NCBI RefSeq assembly: GCF_003918875.1
Contig: NW_025766447.1
Span: 3,348,001 to 3,412,000, forward strand
Length of the DNA stretch: 64,000 nt
DNA from: Haliotis rubra
Lineage: Eukaryota
Direction of reading: 5' to 3'
In this document: piece by piece, positions 16,901 to 28,900 of the stretch
Layout of the letters: every line of letters begins with the position of its first letter
Numbering within the stretch: the first letter of the stretch is position 1
Program-made: the position numbers

Positions 16901-19900
16901 GTCACAAGTGGGGATCGATCCAGCCACCTGTCGCGTACTAGTGCGGGTGTCAGGCTGGGAAAATCACATTTAAAAAATGACTATTGCTGGGAAGGCCATG
17001 GCTGTAGCTGGTAAAGCCACATTTCCAACAGATTAATTAATTAATGGATTACTATAACCGGTGAAAGAGTGTCCCCATGTATAATATTGTCTTTACTCAA
17101 AAGGGTGGTGTTTAGAGATACCGGAGAAAGACTGTCCCTATTTATGGTTTAAACATATTTATTTTCAGAAGCCTGGGTTGGTAAAAAAGCACCGTTCTGC
17201 TTATATAAATACCGCAACATAACAATTCCAAAATAGTGATGGTTACAAGTAAACGAAAATAATAAAGAACTCATGTGTTCATAGATAAAGAAGCATGTGT
17301 TCATAAGTAAATGAAGCAAAGGTGCGATTAACAGTAAGATCACTACATCCTAGTCTCAGTCGACTGTGAGTTATTTGACAGTTTCTACTATCATAGTATA
17401 CCATAATAAACTACCATAATATTCACAAGAAACGAATAATTTTTCCTACTCACAAGCGTGGTGTTTAGCATTATCGGTAAAACACTGTCCCTACTTATAT
17501 TTTTTTTCATAAGACATCAGTAAACTCCAGTCCAGATTAATCTAACTGATTTCTTTCCTACTCAGCGTGTTGTGATCTGAATAAAATTATGAGGAAACAT
17601 GTCTTGTTTTGTTAATTACGGTATCCTGTTTGAATCACTAAACATGTTTGACAGCATAGCCAGGAGAGCCACATTCCATGTTCACGCAACCATAACTATT
17701 GCCGGGAGAGCCAAATCAATTTTGGCTATCTGATTTGGAAATGTGGCTCTCCTGGCCTGTAACCCTAGCTGCGGCTCCTTAGACAGCTTGCCCACCATGC
17801 CCCCAGTATCTGCACACAATAGTTTTTGGTTTCAGTATAAACAATGATAGAGATGGAGGACGCCTCACTGAAGGAGCAGTTTGAGAGGCTCCAGGAACAG
17901 CAGAGACAGAAGTTGATGAGAAGGAAACAGAAGAAAGACGCAGAGAAGGAGAAACCAGAAACTGCCAGAAGTGCATTTGGTGTTACTGATGAACTGAATC
18001 TAAAAGTAAGTACTCTCTGCCCCATGTGTTCAGCTTTACTGAAAAGGCACTAGTCCTGTAGACATTTCCACGTGTACTGTGAGAGTATTCAACCAATTTA
18101 ATCAAACTCAGTAATTAGTGCTTACTGCTGCTACACAAAGCTCATAGTGAGTGCTGATAGTCGATCTGTTATTGGTCAATTGATATTCATACACCTAGTC
18201 ATTGGTCAGAAAGTCCAGCATGTGTTGAAGTGAAATGGTATTCCAAAACATTTACTGGCTATTGCACACGTTACTCTATGCTCTATTACACTATGTGTTT
18301 ACCTTTGGAATATCAGATATTTCAACGTGTTCAATAATGTGAATATCAGTTACTTAGACAGTGTAACAGTCAACAGTTACACACAAGTATGTGTTAGCAT
18401 AGGCTACTGACAAGCCTTGTGGACCACTAACTTTAGATATTCCTCTGCCATTTCATTTGACCCCTGAACTAAGCAAGCAAATAATGTCAGTGCCAGTGTT
18501 AAACATGCACTGATGATTCTGAAAACTTTGCCTATGTTATTAGCTTTCTAGCGATGTGAATGTTAATGGATTTCAAATACAAAAATGGTGTGTGTTTGTG
18601 TAAATATTACAAATGCTATTACGTAATACACACGTTTCTACAGCTTGCTGACCCCCCTGCAGCAAGTAGTTTTCTGTCTGAAGAGCTGGTGGATCACCTC
18701 AACGACCAATTAAGGGTAAGTATATATGTATTAATTAATGAGTTATGTGAGACATCAAGACATCATCTAATATTGTTAATATGATTATCATATCAGTATT
18801 TGTATAGGTAAATATTGGTATCTGCCCCACAAAGAAGATAGCTGCTATTATTTGTGGGTTTAAGTTCTTTATTGCTTGGTTATTTATTGTTAGATATAGA
18901 CTGTTTAAGTGCTTAGTGAAATGGAACAGATTCATGAGACAAGAACATTTTTTCATGACTATGTTTTGTTTTTCAGGAACTGAAGGATGAAAATGGACGT
19001 CTCTACAAACTGCTGAGTGAGAGAGATTTTGAAATCAGGAATCTAAAAAAAAAGAAAATAGAAGAAAACTCAGCAGTGGCAGGTTGGTGTTGAAACTGAT
19101 ATGTAAAATAATGTTTTAAGTCAGTTACTCTCTTAGTAATTAAAAATTCTCAGTATGTATATGTTATTGTTGACAGAGTATTGTTTGTTTACTGAGCCTC
19201 TTAATTTGACATTCTTGAGAAAAGAGAGTTAATAGTATTTGATGAAGACTGATTTTGCATCTACTCACCAGAACATGTGTTGAGGCCATATTTTTATTTG
19301 GTTCTCAACATGCGATTATCATCTGGTTGGTGTAATGTGGTCCTGTACATAGAAGCCCAGGTCACAAATCAGTCAAAGTTAAGTAACGTTGGTTGCAGCC
19401 AGTCCTTGGATAGGTGACTGTATTTGGCAGCTTGACTCCTGAGAGTTTCTAGGTCTTCAGTCCTGCACCACAATGAGGTATGCATGACACATGTGGTCTC
19501 ACCTAGGGCAAGTGGGTTTGTTCATGAATTGCATCTGTTCACCCAGCAGTGAATGGGTACCTTGTGGTATAAGTCATATGACTGTTAATCTTCTAGCGCC
19601 TCACGGGCAGCTTGGGTTATCCAGGGTAATAATGTGTTATTGCCTTGAGGATATATTTTATACATGGTCATTATTATTGTTATTATATTAACATATGATT
19701 ATCATCTGAATGTATGATACCAATAACCTGCCTGGAGAGAGACCTGCTCCTTGGTGTGATGATGTTAGTGAGAGTACCAGGCAGGCAACTGCAGCTTTGA
19801 TTATATCTGCGCTGATTTGTTGTCTGATTATATTTGACACTCCATTTGAAGGTGTGACAAATGAAACTGCTGCAATAAAGATTGTCGAACTATCTAAGAA

Positions 19901-25900: not shown

Positions 25901-28900
25901 TTTTGTATACTGTACTCATCACAACTGAATGATTTCTAATGCAGTGCTATATTACACGTTGATGAAACCTGGAGAGAAACTTTGAGATAGCAGAAGAAAA
26001 AACTTCATGAATTTGTTTGTGTTTGATATATATGATCATGAACAAAAAGGTTTGAGTAATCATTAAATACTGCTGTACAACACATTTCAAAATAGAATTT
26101 AGCAAAAGAAGGTATTAACAACCCATAAATGTTCATTCAGAGTTTAGAAACATTACTTAGTTCAGTTTAAATGTTATTGAAGACTCTGTGATGGTGTCCA
26201 CGTGAAGCATGTAATGACATTGAGTTTTAACTGCAGAGGGCTGCTTCTGAGCTGAAGGCCTTGGAAGAAGATCATTCCACACTGAAAAACAAAATGGATG
26301 CTTGCAAAGCAAGGTACTTGAACATTTATTTTTCTTATATCAATCCTTCCAAATACACTTTGCTGCAAAAGTATTTTCTTACTCAAAATGATTGATGTGT
26401 GTGTTCAGGAACAAGGTGCTGTCCAATGAGACCAAGTCCCTGAAGCAGCAGATACAGACTCTCCTGGAGAAGGGAAAGAATGACGATGAGCTGGTGCAGG
26501 CCCTCATGGTGAGTGTCAGCAGGGTGTGAGATGGTGGTGAGTGTCAGCAGGGTGGGAGATGATGGTGAGTGTCAGCAGGGTGTGAGATGGTGGTGAGTGT
26601 CAGCAGGGTGTGAGATGATGGTGAGTGTCAGCAGGGTGGGAGATGGTGGTGAGTGTCAGCAGGGTGGGAGATGGTGGTGAGTGTCAGCAGGGTGGGAGAT
26701 GGTGGTGAGTGTCAGCAGGGTGGGAGATGATGGTGAGGTCAGCCAGGTGTGAGATGATGGTGGAGTGTCAGCAGGGTGGAGATGATGATGGTGAGTGTCA
26801 GCAGGGTGGGAGATGATGGTGAGTGTCAGCAGGGTGGGAGATGATGGTGAGAATGTCAGCAGGGTGGGAGATGATGGTGAGTGTCAGCAGGGTGGAGAGA
26901 TGGTGGTCAGCAGGGAGTGTCAGCAGTGTCAGCAGGGGGGGTGGGAGATGATGGTGAGAGTGTCAGCAGGGTGGGAGATGATGGGTGAGTGTCAGCAGGG
27001 TGTGAGATGGTGGTGAGTGTCAACAGGGTGGGAGATGATGGTGAGTGTCAGCAGGGTGGGAGATGATGGTGAGTGTCAGCAGGGTGTGAGATGATGGTGA
27101 GTGTCAGCAGGGTGTGAGATGATGGTGAGTGTCAGCAGGGTGGGAGATGATGGTGAGTGTCAGCAGGGTGGGAGATGGTGGTGAGTGTCAGCAGGGTGGG
27201 AGATGATGGTGAGTGTCAGCAGGGTGGAGATGATGGTGAGTGTCAGCAGGGTGGGAGATGACAGGGTGGTGAGTGTCAGCAAGGTGGGAGATGATGGTGA
27301 GTGTCAGCAGGGTGATGGTGGAGATGGTGAGAGGATGGTGAGTGTGTGTCAGCAGGGTGGGAGATGATGGTGAGTGTCAGCAGGGTGGGAGATGATGGTG
27401 AGTGTCAGCAGGGTGGGAGATGATGGTGAGTGTCAGCAGGGTGGGAGATGATGGTGAGTGTCAGCAGGGTGGGAGATGATGGTGAGTGTCAGCAGGGTGG
27501 GAGATGATGATGTGGGAGGGTGAGATGATGGTGAGTGTCAGCAGGGTGGAGAGATGGTGGTGAGTGTCAGCAGGTCAGCAGGGGAGATGGTGGTGAGTGT
27601 CAGCAGGGTGGGAGATGATGGTGAGTGTCAGCAGGGTGGGAGATGATGGTGAGAGTGTCAGCAGGGTGGGAGATGATGGTGAGTGTCAGCAGGGTGGGGA
27701 GATGATGGTGGAGTGTCAGCAGGGTGGGAGATGATGGTGAGTGTCAGCAGGGTGGGAGATGGTGGTGAGTGTCAGCAGGGTGGGAGATGATGGTGGTGAG
27801 TGTCAGCAGGGTGGGAGATGATGGTGAGTGTCAGCAGGGTGGGAGATGATGGTGAGTGTCAGCAGGGTGGGAGATGATGGTGAGTGTCAGCAGGGTGGGA
27901 GATGATGGTGAGTGTCAGCATGGGGTGGGAGATGAGTGGTGAGTGTCAGCAGGGTGGGAGATGATGGGTGTCAACAGGGTGGGAGATGATGGTGAATGTC
28001 AGCAGGGTGGGAGATGATGGTGAGTGTCAGCAGGGTGGGAGATGATGGTGGGTCAGCAGGGTGGGAGATGATGGTGACAGGGTGGGAGAGTGTCAGCAGG
28101 GTGGGAGAGATGATGGTGAGTGAGTGTCAGCAGGGTGGGAGATGGTGAATGTCAGCAGGGTGGGAGATGATGGTGAGTGTCAGCAGGGTGGGGGTGGGAG
28201 AGATGATGGTGAGTGTCAGCAGGGTGGGAGATGATGGTGGTGAGAGTGTCAGCAGGGCAGGATGAGTGATGGTGAGGACATGGTGGGGAGATGATGGTGA
28301 GTGTCAGCAGGGTGGGAGAGTGTGATGGCGGGTGCAGGGTGGGAGATGATGGTGTCAGCAGGACAGGGTGGGAGATGGTGATGTGAGCAGGGTGGACATG
28401 GTGAGGAGATGATGGTGAGGGTGGACAGGGTGGGGAGATGGTGGTGAGTGAGGTGGACAGGGTGGGGAGATGGTGGTGAGTGTGGACATGGTGGGAGATG
28501 ATGGTGGTGATGGTGGGTGGACAGACAGGGATGGGTGATGGACAGGGTGGACAGGGTGGACTGGGAGATGGTGGTTAGGGTGGACAGGGTGGGAGATGGT
28601 TGTTAGGGTGGACAGGGTGTGAGTTGCTGGTGAGGGTGGACAGGGTGGGAGATAATGGCAATGGTTGGACAGGGTGGGAGATGTTAGCCAGGTATTGTTG
28701 AACATAGCTTTCTATCCTTATTTAAACCATCCCCTGGTAAATGCCCTTGTGTCCATCCTGACAGAGGCAGCTACAGCAGCTGAAGCAGATGTTGGAGGCT
28801 TCAAATGTGCACCAGCAGAGTAACATGGAGCGTCACCAGGAGAAGTTGAAGGACATGAATGTCAAGGTGCAGCAGGACAACAACATCGTGGAGCAGCTCA

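What the first reader, a model, noticed from the sequence alone, without database searches (positions are those of the whole stretch)
19852..28680. Gene-wide pattern: four CCDC13 exons have duplications or satellites anchored at splice sites
Seen: duplicated acceptor plus exon start (19852/19965), a 46-bp array starting at intron position +3 (21048), the 114-bp exon/donor array (23793) and the 28-bp donor array (26506). The units are unrelated. None of the other four genes shows this; the HSPBAP1 63-bp array is mid-intron. Inference: some transcription- or splicing-coupled process such as R-loops or pausing may nucleate tandem duplication at exon ends here, which is a route to new introns and exons.
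Basis: inference. Interest (0 to 1): 0.65.

Follow-up and report, generated by a model that had tools for sequence, protein, structure and literature searches.

The report
Tandem repeats at abalone CCDC13 splice junctions
In an abalone CCDC13 gene, four separate local DNA duplications (three grown into long repeat arrays) sit right on exon-intron junctions; this is real and somewhat more than chance, but it looks like ordinary repeat slippage in a compact, possibly damaged gene copy.

Summary
The window is abalone DNA, not human. Its HSPBAP1 exons match the Haliotis rubra protein. The + strand gene at 17853-32629 is a 16-exon CCDC13 ortholog.

All four structures exist where stated:
- a copy of the exon 4 acceptor and exon start inside a 76-nt insert in exon 4;
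- a 46-bp array starting at intron 5 position +3;
- a 114-bp array made of exon 7 plus its donor;
- a 28-bp array that repeats the exon 10 donor, leaving 51 GTGAGT in one intron.

The units are unrelated, local and not dispersed. A fifth duplication (43 bp, intron 12) lies mid-intron. Random placement puts at least 4 of 5 units within 3 nt of a junction with p = 0.005, a post hoc figure for one gene.

GC skews run from -0.32 to +0.76, so the arrays share no R-loop signature.

As assembled, the reading frame is broken at exon 4, exon 7 and exon 11 (1 nt short). Exon 7 is rescued on paper by splicing between duplicated AGGT sites, the published tandem-duplication route to new introns.

My verdict is ordinary slippage-born duplications in a compact gene copy that is recently disabled or mis-assembled. 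This is a new member of a known kind. A splicing-coupled mutational cause is untested and unsupported.

The parts
17853..32629 (+). CCDC13 ortholog, 16 exons
   Evidence: tblastn of the H. cracherodii CCDC13-like protein P0001 (710 aa) gives collinear exon matches of 83-100% identity.
19842..19874 (+). Original exon 4 acceptor (last 10 nt of intron 3) plus the first 23 nt of exon 4; source of the duplicate
   Evidence: Direct repeat D1 and D13. The acceptor lies at 19851|19852.
19929..20004 (+). 76-nt insert inside exon 4. It carries a degenerate copy of about 34 nt of intron 3 end plus about 27 nt of exon 4 start (best copy 19955-19987). It contains in-frame stops.
   Evidence: The ortholog reads straight across this point. 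Alignment of the insert to the upstream sequence is; the read-through stops are.
20959..21047 (+). Exon 5 (to 21045) and its GC donor dinucleotide (21046-21047)
   Evidence: The ortholog alignment ends at 21045 in phase 0 and exon 6 starts in phase 0. An alternative GT donor lies 9 nt downstream, inside the first repeat unit (sequence).
21048..22433 (+). 46-bp minisatellite of about 30 units at the 5' end of intron 5. The first two units are near consensus, 21140-21500 is degenerate, and the 3' part is homogeneous.
   Evidence: D8. No copy elsewhere in the window.
23781..23795 (+). First 15 nt of exon 7, up to the exonic AG|GT (23794-23797) where the 114-bp periodicity begins
23793..24452 (+). 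114-bp array. The unit is most of exon 7 plus its donor plus about 19 nt of intron. It holds 5 full copies and a 31-nt partial copy. The first copy is rearranged, copy 2 lacks 1 G in a G run, and copy 3 has an 18-nt insert.
   Evidence: D9, D11, D14. The unit is 38 codons and is open in one frame (ORF 23917-24537).
24199..24288 (+). Intact exon 7-like copy. With 23781-23795 it gives 35 codons, 33 of 35 identical to the ortholog. It is followed by a GT donor.
24313..24402 (+). Second intact exon 7-like copy (32 of 35 identical to the ortholog)
26409..26508 (+). Exon 10, with its authentic donor GTGAGT at 26509
26506..28683 (+). 28-bp G-rich minisatellite. Its unit begins with the last 3 nt of exon 10 and the donor. 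The intron holds 51 GTGAGT in all. The array is homogeneous at its 5' end and centre and decays towards its 3' end. It fills all but 81 nt of intron 10.
   Evidence: GC skew +0.76.
28765..28970 (+). Exon 11, 206 nt. It is one base short of a multiple of 3, and the frame shifts at about 28912.
   Evidence: Two tblastn pieces in different frames; coordinates.
29939..30024 (+). 43-bp x 2 tandem duplication in the middle of intron 12; the counter-example to the pattern
   Evidence: D12; distances.
44229..44673 (+). 63-bp x 7 array in HSPBAP1 intron 5, used as the comparison array
   Evidence: HSPBAP1 exons.

Best explanation
These are independent, ordinary local tandem duplications in a compact abalone CCDC13 gene. 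Short segments of 28-114 nt were copied head to tail by replication slippage or unequal exchange, and three then grew into minisatellites of about 30, 5.3 and 55 or more units.

Shown:
- Three of the four source segments are the gene's own junction sequence: the exon 4 acceptor, exon 7 plus its donor, and the exon 10 donor. Every copy therefore carries a splice signal.
- The units are unrelated to one another and to the dispersed repeats in the window.

Inferred: they sit on junctions because
- junctions are dense here (30 in about 10.6 kb once the arrays are collapsed);
- intron 10 was only about 81 nt before its expansion;
- donor-type short direct repeats may act as slippage seeds;
- the case was picked after the fact.
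A shared transcription- or splicing-coupled process is not needed.

Consequences:
- The arrays in introns 5 and 10 allow normal mRNA if the first donor is used.
- Exon 7 needs a splice between duplicated AG|GT sites to keep the frame.
- The exon 4 insert and a 1-nt loss in exon 11 break the frame.

As assembled, this copy cannot make the full protein. It is either a recently disabled allele or pseudogene, which would also explain why exon-touching duplications persist, or it carries consensus errors at the small lesions.
For: - Arrays and duplicate at the stated coordinates.
- Unit content: exon 7 segment x 6 and exon end plus donor x 6; 51 GTGAGT in intron 10.
- No copy of any unit outside its own array. 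Real dispersed elements are easy to see in the same window: 13 and 7 extra matches.
- Different composition: GC skew -0.32 to +0.76.
- Junction density: the chance that a unit lies within 3 nt of a junction is 0.32, 0.15, 0.32 and 0.10. Intron 9 is 95 nt (recounted from the sequence contexts, which printed 93) and intron 10 minus its array is 81 nt.
- A fifth duplication is mid-intron.
- Copies 1 and 3 of the 114-bp array share an insertion at the same spot (D14). This points to inherited variants copied in a two-unit step rather than random noise.
- Frame breaks: exon 4, exon 7 (6 of 6 contiguous readings carry a stop), exon 11.
- The neighbouring HSPBAP1 reads through 7 exons with no frame break.
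Against: - Random placement still gives only p = 0.0054 for at least 4 of 5. The chance of one array starting within 3 nt of a donor is 0.0098, so two doing so is 9.7e-5 before allowing for choice. Some real bias towards junctions is not excluded.
- All three arrays lie at the extreme 5' end of their introns. Neutral tolerance does not predict this.
- The origin of the 46-bp unit from local sequence is not shown.
- The donor-repeat slippage seed is my inference.
- Exon identity to H. cracherodii is high (83-100%), so any loss of function must be recent.
Confidence: 0.55

Rival explanations
1. A transcription- or splicing-coupled process (R-loops, polymerase pausing at exon ends) seeds tandem duplication at splice junctions in this gene.
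For: Four of 5 duplications touch a junction, nominal p = 0.0054. Three arrays start at the very 5' end of introns. The 28-bp array is strongly G-rich on the sense strand, GC skew +0.76, which suits R-loops.
Against: - The arrays share no composition. The 46-bp array is AT-rich with skew -0.32 and the insert has +0.12.
- One event is at an acceptor.
- One duplication and the HSPBAP1 array are mid-intron.
- This is a single gene chosen after the fact.
- Two literature searches turned up no such mechanism among the papers listed (15 of 38 and 12 of 67 listed).
Confidence: 0.08
2. Assembly artefact. Some or all of the odd features are consensus errors of a long-read assembly in repetitive DNA: the garbled first exon 7 copy, the 1-nt losses, perhaps the truncated exon 4 duplicate. 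The true gene would then be intact, with simpler arrays.
For: - The lesion in copy 2 of the 114-bp array is the loss of one G from a G run. The exon 11 loss lies next to a G.
- Variation in the CCDC13 arrays is rich in indels: 7-13% by TRF, against 0% in the 63-bp HSPBAP1 array.
- One published H. rubra assembly used nanopore reads (title in the listing only). I did not establish where the window comes from.
Against: - Arrays of 0.6-2.2 kb with coherent higher-order structure are unlikely to be invented.
- Copies 1 and 3 of the 114-bp array share a structural variant (D14).
- HSPBAP1 nearby has no frame error in 566 codons.
- An artefact would not explain where the arrays sit.
Confidence: 0.2
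3. A working gene caught during intron birth. The exon 7 array is removed by splicing between duplicated AG|GT sites, the other arrays are spliced out from the first donor, and the remaining lesions are errors. The locus would be a live example of intron gain by tandem duplication.
For: - The unit boundary is an exonic AGGT, present 6 times.
- Two of 4 AG|GT-to-AG|GT paths give a 105-nt open exon, 33 of 35 and 32 of 35 identical to the ortholog.
- The model was shown to work experimentally in another gene (passages of PMC3265369).
Against: - The candidate acceptors are purine-rich, with no pyrimidine tract.
- None of the 20 stop-free GT/GC-AG mini-introns listed for exon 4 restores the ortholog exactly.
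- The exon 11 frameshift cannot be spliced away.
- No H. rubra CCDC13 protein turned up in two exon searches of a database that holds the H. rubra HSPBAP1 protein. This is weak evidence, because H. asinina CCDC13 is missing too.
Confidence: 0.12
4. The arrays were delivered by mobile elements (satellite-bearing transposons or introner-like elements) that target splice junctions.
For: The exon 4 insert is flanked by a 10-nt near-repeat, which could be read as a target-site duplication (sequence).
Against: - Three units are plainly the gene's own junction sequence.
- No unit occurs elsewhere in the 64 kb, while true dispersed repeats do.
- The introns that hold the arrays are at positions matching the exon ends of the ortholog protein alignment, so they are old introns.
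Confidence: 0.03

Closest known systems
Intron gain by tandem duplication of an exonic AGGT-containing segment (Rogers model; ATP2A1 re-enactment, PMC3265369; Drosophila cases, PMC2891723; potato RdRp, PMC4974935)
   Same: The exon 7 array repeats a segment whose boundary is an exonic AGGT. Splicing between two such sites restores the reading frame on paper. The principle is stated in passages I read. For the potato case I saw only the listing and the start of the abstract.
   Different: - Here the unit also contains the old donor and about 19 nt of the old intron, and it is repeated 5 times rather than twice.
- The first copy is rearranged.
- Splicing is not shown.
- The candidate acceptors lack a pyrimidine tract.
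Internal tandem repeats at exon-intron boundaries of human genes in segmental duplications (De Grassi and Ciccarelli 2009, PMC2812944)
   Same: Minisatellite-size units (average 30 bp there) lie on exon-intron boundaries and can lengthen introns or create new ones. That paper reports 27 intron modifications (passages).
   Different: - Those cases are in recently duplicated primate paralogs and have transcript support. Here it is a single-copy-looking mollusc gene with no transcript data.
- Four events fall in one gene, and one array carries 50 extra consensus donors.
Introns arising from tandem arrays in human genes (Zhuo et al. 2007, PNAS)
   Same: By its title, arrays whose units carry splice signals give rise to alternatively spliced introns.
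   Different: I could not read it. It is not held, and I saw only its title in reference lists. Any closer comparison would rest on my recollection.
Ordinary intronic minisatellites / VNTRs
   Same: Head-to-tail units of 28-114 bp, homogenised centres and decayed edges. The 63-bp HSPBAP1 array in the same window is a plain example.
   Different: Typical arrays are mid-intron. These start within 3 nt of a donor or inside an exon.

Membership tests
Minisatellite born by local tandem duplication | Head-to-tail copies with a fixed period well above chance | tested here: met
   TRF periods 46, 114 and 28. Motif matches 21 and 53 against 0 expected.
Minisatellite born by local tandem duplication | The unit is derived from the adjoining unique sequence | tested here: met
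   Met for the 113-nt duplicate, the 114-bp unit and the 28-bp unit. Not shown for the 46-bp unit, which has no source outside its array.
Minisatellite born by local tandem duplication | Copy number varies between individuals or haplotypes | not testable with these tools
   No reads, other haplotypes or other abalone genomes were available.
Intron gain by tandem duplication (Rogers type) | The duplicated segment contains an exonic AGGT proto-splice site | tested here: met
   AGGT at 23794 in exon 7 and at 5 later unit boundaries.
Intron gain by tandem duplication (Rogers type) | Removal from the first GT to a later AG restores the original reading frame | tested here: met
   Two of 4 paths give 105 nt with no stop, 33 of 35 and 32 of 35 identical to the ortholog. 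One path gives 123 nt and is open. One is out of frame.
Intron gain by tandem duplication (Rogers type) | The new intron is actually spliced | not testable with these tools
   No transcript data. The acceptor contexts are purine-rich.
Intron gain by tandem duplication (Rogers type) | Relatives have the undivided exon | tested here: inconclusive
Transposon-borne satellite or introner | Dispersed copies of the unit or element elsewhere | tested here: not met
   None in the 64-kb window, while two dispersed repeat families are found. A genome-wide search was not possible.
Unitary pseudogene | Frame-disrupting lesions relative to an intact ortholog | tested here: met
   Exon 4 insert with stops; exon 7 stop in 6 of 6 contiguous readings; exon 11 one base short. 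All of this holds only as assembled.
Unitary pseudogene | Lesions confirmed in reads; relaxed constraint; no functional transcript | not testable with these tools
   No reads, no ortholog DNA for a rate test, no RNA.
R-loop or transcription-coupled duplication hotspot | Shared G-rich sense-strand skew at all sites | tested here: not met
   GC skew +0.12, -0.32, +0.39 and +0.76.
R-loop or transcription-coupled duplication hotspot | Enrichment of events at junctions over random placement | tested here: inconclusive
   p = 0.0054 for at least 4 of 5 in one gene, post hoc. No genome-wide test was possible.

The most novel reading that the evidence does not exclude
Splice junctions in this abalone gene may be genuine seeds of tandem duplication. 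The donor consensus would act as a recurrent short direct repeat, or a splicing-linked lesion would arise there. The exon 7 array would then be a living Rogers-type intron birth: the gene stays functional by splicing between duplicated AG|GT sites while carrying 50 spare donors in intron 10. If so, the locus would show intron and exon creation from junction-anchored minisatellites in progress.
Probability: 0.1. Interest if true: 0.6.

Novelty: new member of a known kind. Interest (0 to 1): 0.3.

Why it matters
Recent, still recognisable cases of intron gain by tandem duplication are rare. A mollusc locus with an exonic AGGT repeated six times could be tested directly with RNA reads. An intron with 51 consensus donors is also a natural experiment in donor choice.

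The claim of a general splicing-coupled mutational process would matter far more, but one gene at a nominal p of about 0.005 cannot carry it. The practical point is that this CCDC13 copy is frame-broken as assembled, so annotation and any evolutionary reading depend on checking the reads.

Tried and rejected
- Pfam on 9 exon translations gave only weak coiled-coil-type noise and no CCDC13 family.
- Rfam on the whole window gave 0 matches, so the arrays are not known RNA genes.
- I looked for an annotated H. rubra CCDC13 protein to see how annotators spliced the arrays. Exon 14 and exon 8 queries returned only the H. cracherodii protein, plus one unnamed 111-aa ENA entry that I did not use.
- I listed every GT/GC...AG mini-intron that leaves exon 4 open. 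There are 20 stop-free options, and none reproduces the ortholog.
- Junction 24-mers with 3 mismatches flagged nothing. That window reached too far into unique exon or intron sequence. 20-mers flagged the exon 4 acceptor (2 copies) and the exon 10 donor (46 copies) among 84 tests on 42 junctions.
- The TE origin was rejected.
- A single R-loop cause was rejected on composition.
- The paper by Zhuo et al. 2007 is not held. PMC10078293 (passages) says nothing about where repeats arise.

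
Full report
**What the window is.** The window has two N runs (53934-54088 and 58802-59011), which I left alone. It is not human.
- An exon 14 translation finds 'coiled-coil domain-containing protein 13-like [Haliotis cracherodii]' (P0001, 710 aa, 88% identity).
- An HSPBAP1 exon finds the H. rubra, H. cracherodii and H. asinina proteins at 97, 87 and 86% over the queried ORF.
- In tblastn every exon-internal residue of the H. rubra HSPBAP1 protein that I could see matches the window, over 7 exons with no frame break.

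So this is H. rubra or something very close to it. I did not try to establish which record or assembly it comes from.

**Gene model.** tblastn of P0001 maps 16 collinear exons on the + strand from 17853 to 32629, at 83-100% identity per exon. The splice contexts are, where I corrected three boundaries by eye. All searches were made exon by exon. I did not search with a joined spliced model.

**The four features.**
- *Exon 4.* The H. cracherodii protein reads straight through exon 4. The window has a 76-nt insert at 19929-20004. The insert is a degenerate copy of about 34 nt of the intron 3 end plus about 27 nt of the exon 4 start, with a short tail resembling the bases just before the insertion point. 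The best-kept part is the 33-nt repeat 19842-19874 / 19955-19987, 97% identical.
- *Exon 5.* It ends at 21045 in phase 0, followed by GC. The 46-bp array starts at 21048 and runs for about 30 units to 22433. The '+3' description rests on a GC donor whose surrounding bases fit the donor consensus well. GC-AG introns are roughly 1% of introns (recalled, not from a call). A GT lies 9 nt further on, inside the first unit.
- *Exon 7.* The periodicity begins at 23793, at an exonic AGGT. The unit is the rest of exon 7, its donor and about 19 nt of intron, 114 nt or 38 codons in all. AGGT followed by the exon segment occurs 6 times, and the exon end plus donor occurs 6 times.
- *Exon 10.* The 28-bp unit starts with the last 3 nt of the exon and the donor GTGAGT. 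Intron 10 contains 51 GTGAGT. The array is homogeneous from its 5' end through the centre and decays at its 3' end.

**What else is there.**
- A fifth tandem duplication (43 bp x 2, 81% identical, 29939-30024) lies mid-intron 12, 254 and 168 nt from the flanking exons.
- Three tiny repeats (9-12 bp units) are at 20878, 22929 (inside exon 6) and 23362.
- Outside the gene, the 63-bp array at 44229-44673 is in HSPBAP1 intron 5, about 1300 and 620 nt from the exons.
- I did not map exons for the genes near the arrays at 6446-6985 and 54548-56640.

**Chance.** After collapsing the arrays the gene is about 10.6 kb with 30 junctions.
- The chance that a randomly placed unit lies within 3 nt of a junction is 0.32 (113 nt), 0.15 (46), 0.32 (114), 0.10 (28) and 0.14 (43).
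- All four touching has probability 0.0014. At least 4 of 5 has probability 0.0054.
- A start within 3 nt of the first intron base has probability 0.0098 per array.

These figures are post hoc and apply to one gene picked by a reader of many windows. The pattern is suggestive, not decisive. Intron 9 is 95 nt by my recount of the sequence contexts (that call printed 93 with the uncorrected exon 9 end). Intron 10 without its array is 81 nt. An array born in such an intron has little room except next to the donor.

**Origin.**
- The units do not match each other or anything else in the window.
- Two dispersed repeat families are easy to find in the same window, with 7 and 13 extra matches. The arrays are therefore local, not transposon cargo.
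- Composition differs widely. GC skew is +0.12 (insert), -0.32 (46 bp), +0.39 (114 bp) and +0.76 (28 bp).
- Only the 28-bp array is a plausible R-loop or G-quadruplex former. That paired G triplets separated by a long loop can fold is my recollection, not a call.
- Copies 1 and 3 of the 114-bp array share an insertion at the same site (D14). This suggests a two-unit duplication step and argues that the irregular copies are inherited variants.

**Coding consequences.**
- *Exon 4.* Read-through hits stops. The scan listed 20 stop-free GT/GC-AG mini-introns. None reproduces the ortholog, and the nearest ones change one or two residues.
- *Exon 7.* All 6 contiguous readings, from the acceptor to each exon-like end, have a stop and the wrong length. 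Splicing from the first AG|GT (23795|23796) to the unit boundaries at 24198|24199 or 24312|24313 gives a 105-nt open exon, 33 of 35 or 32 of 35 identical to the ortholog. The path to 24066|24067 gives 123 nt and is open. The path to 23953|23954 is out of frame because that copy lacks one G of a G run. The candidate acceptors are purine-rich.
- *Exon 10.* Using any later donor adds a stop 7 codons in.
- *Exon 11.* It is 206 nt, one base short, with the frame changing near 28912.

**Disabled copy or consensus error?** I cannot decide.
- For error: the array-copy loss is in a G run and the exon 11 loss lies next to a G; the arrays have 7-13% indels by TRF against 0% in the HSPBAP1 array; one published H. 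rubra assembly used nanopore reads (title only).
- For real lesions: HSPBAP1 is clean; the 76-nt insert and the rearranged exon 7 copy are structural; no H. rubra CCDC13 protein appears in a database that holds its HSPBAP1. That last point is weak, because H. asinina CCDC13 is missing too.

High exon identity to H. cracherodii means any loss of function is recent. A disabled copy would explain why exon-touching duplications are tolerated in this gene and not in its neighbours. It would not by itself explain why they sit on junctions.

**Mechanism I commit to.**
- Shown: head-to-tail local duplication of junction-containing segments, followed by array growth and partial homogenisation.
- Inferred: slippage or unequal exchange; possibly slippage between the real donor and a nearby donor-like motif, in the manner proposed for minisatellite birth between short direct repeats (Haber and Louis; recalled, not looked up).
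- Not shown: any link to transcription or splicing.

**Known comparators.**
- The AGGT duplication route to introns was proposed by Rogers and re-enacted for ATP2A1 (passages of PMC3265369).
- It was inferred for 5 Drosophila cases (passages of PMC2891723).
- It was reported for a potato gene (listing and start of abstract only).
- Minisatellites on exon-intron boundaries that modify introns were catalogued in human segmental duplications, with 27 intron modifications (passages of PMC2812944).
- Zhuo et al. 2007 is known to me by title only.
- Two searches for a splicing- or R-loop-coupled origin of tandem duplications showed nothing of that kind among the papers listed (15 of 38 listed; 12 of 67 listed). 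This is not proof of absence.

**Unchecked.** I could not check raw reads, other haplotypes, orthologous DNA of other abalones, transcripts, genome-wide statistics or genome-wide copies of the units.

Noticed in passing
window 28905-28920: CCDC13 exon 11 is 206 nt, one base short. The ortholog alignment continues in another frame from 28914. The loss lies next to a G and could be a consensus error or a real frameshift.
   Followed up: partly
window 29939-30024: 43-bp x 2 tandem duplication (81% identical) in the middle of CCDC13 intron 12, missed by TRF at score 40. It is the one duplication in the gene that is not at a junction.
   Followed up: yes
window 2055-5164: Retroelement remnant on the + strand. 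Long overlapping ORFs in several frames, one with an RT_RNaseH domain (E = 1.1e-5).
   Followed up: partly
window 54548-56640: AT-rich 21-bp satellite of about 95 copies (79-80% matches), starting about 460 nt after the N run 53934-54088. Its relation to any gene was not mapped.
   Followed up: no
window 6446-6985: Composite array with nested periods of 44, 65 and 108 bp. Its gene context is not mapped.
   Followed up: no
window 47614-47668: Perfect 18-bp x 3.1 repeat about 200 nt downstream of the HSPBAP1 stop codon.
   Followed up: no
window 31520-31690 and 13 other places (e.g. 53121-53293, 42266-42437, 35634-35777): Dispersed element of about 170 nt, 74-93% identical, on both strands, found in introns of CCDC13 and HSPBAP1 and between genes. 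A second family of about 200 nt has copies at 25685-25885, 10552-10756, 51806-51970 and 9481-9712.
   Followed up: partly
window 38847-39131 (-) and 62744-63888 (+): A DSS1/SEM1-family exon on the minus strand (E = 8.4e-7, below the Pfam cut-off) and VWA7 N-terminal-domain exons on the plus strand (E = 1e-7).
   Followed up: partly
window 23917-24537: The 114-bp array is open in one frame for 207 codons, because the unit is 38 codons and its intron part has no stop. Read-through would encode a repeated peptide, but this frame is not the one entered from the exon 7 acceptor.
   Followed up: partly
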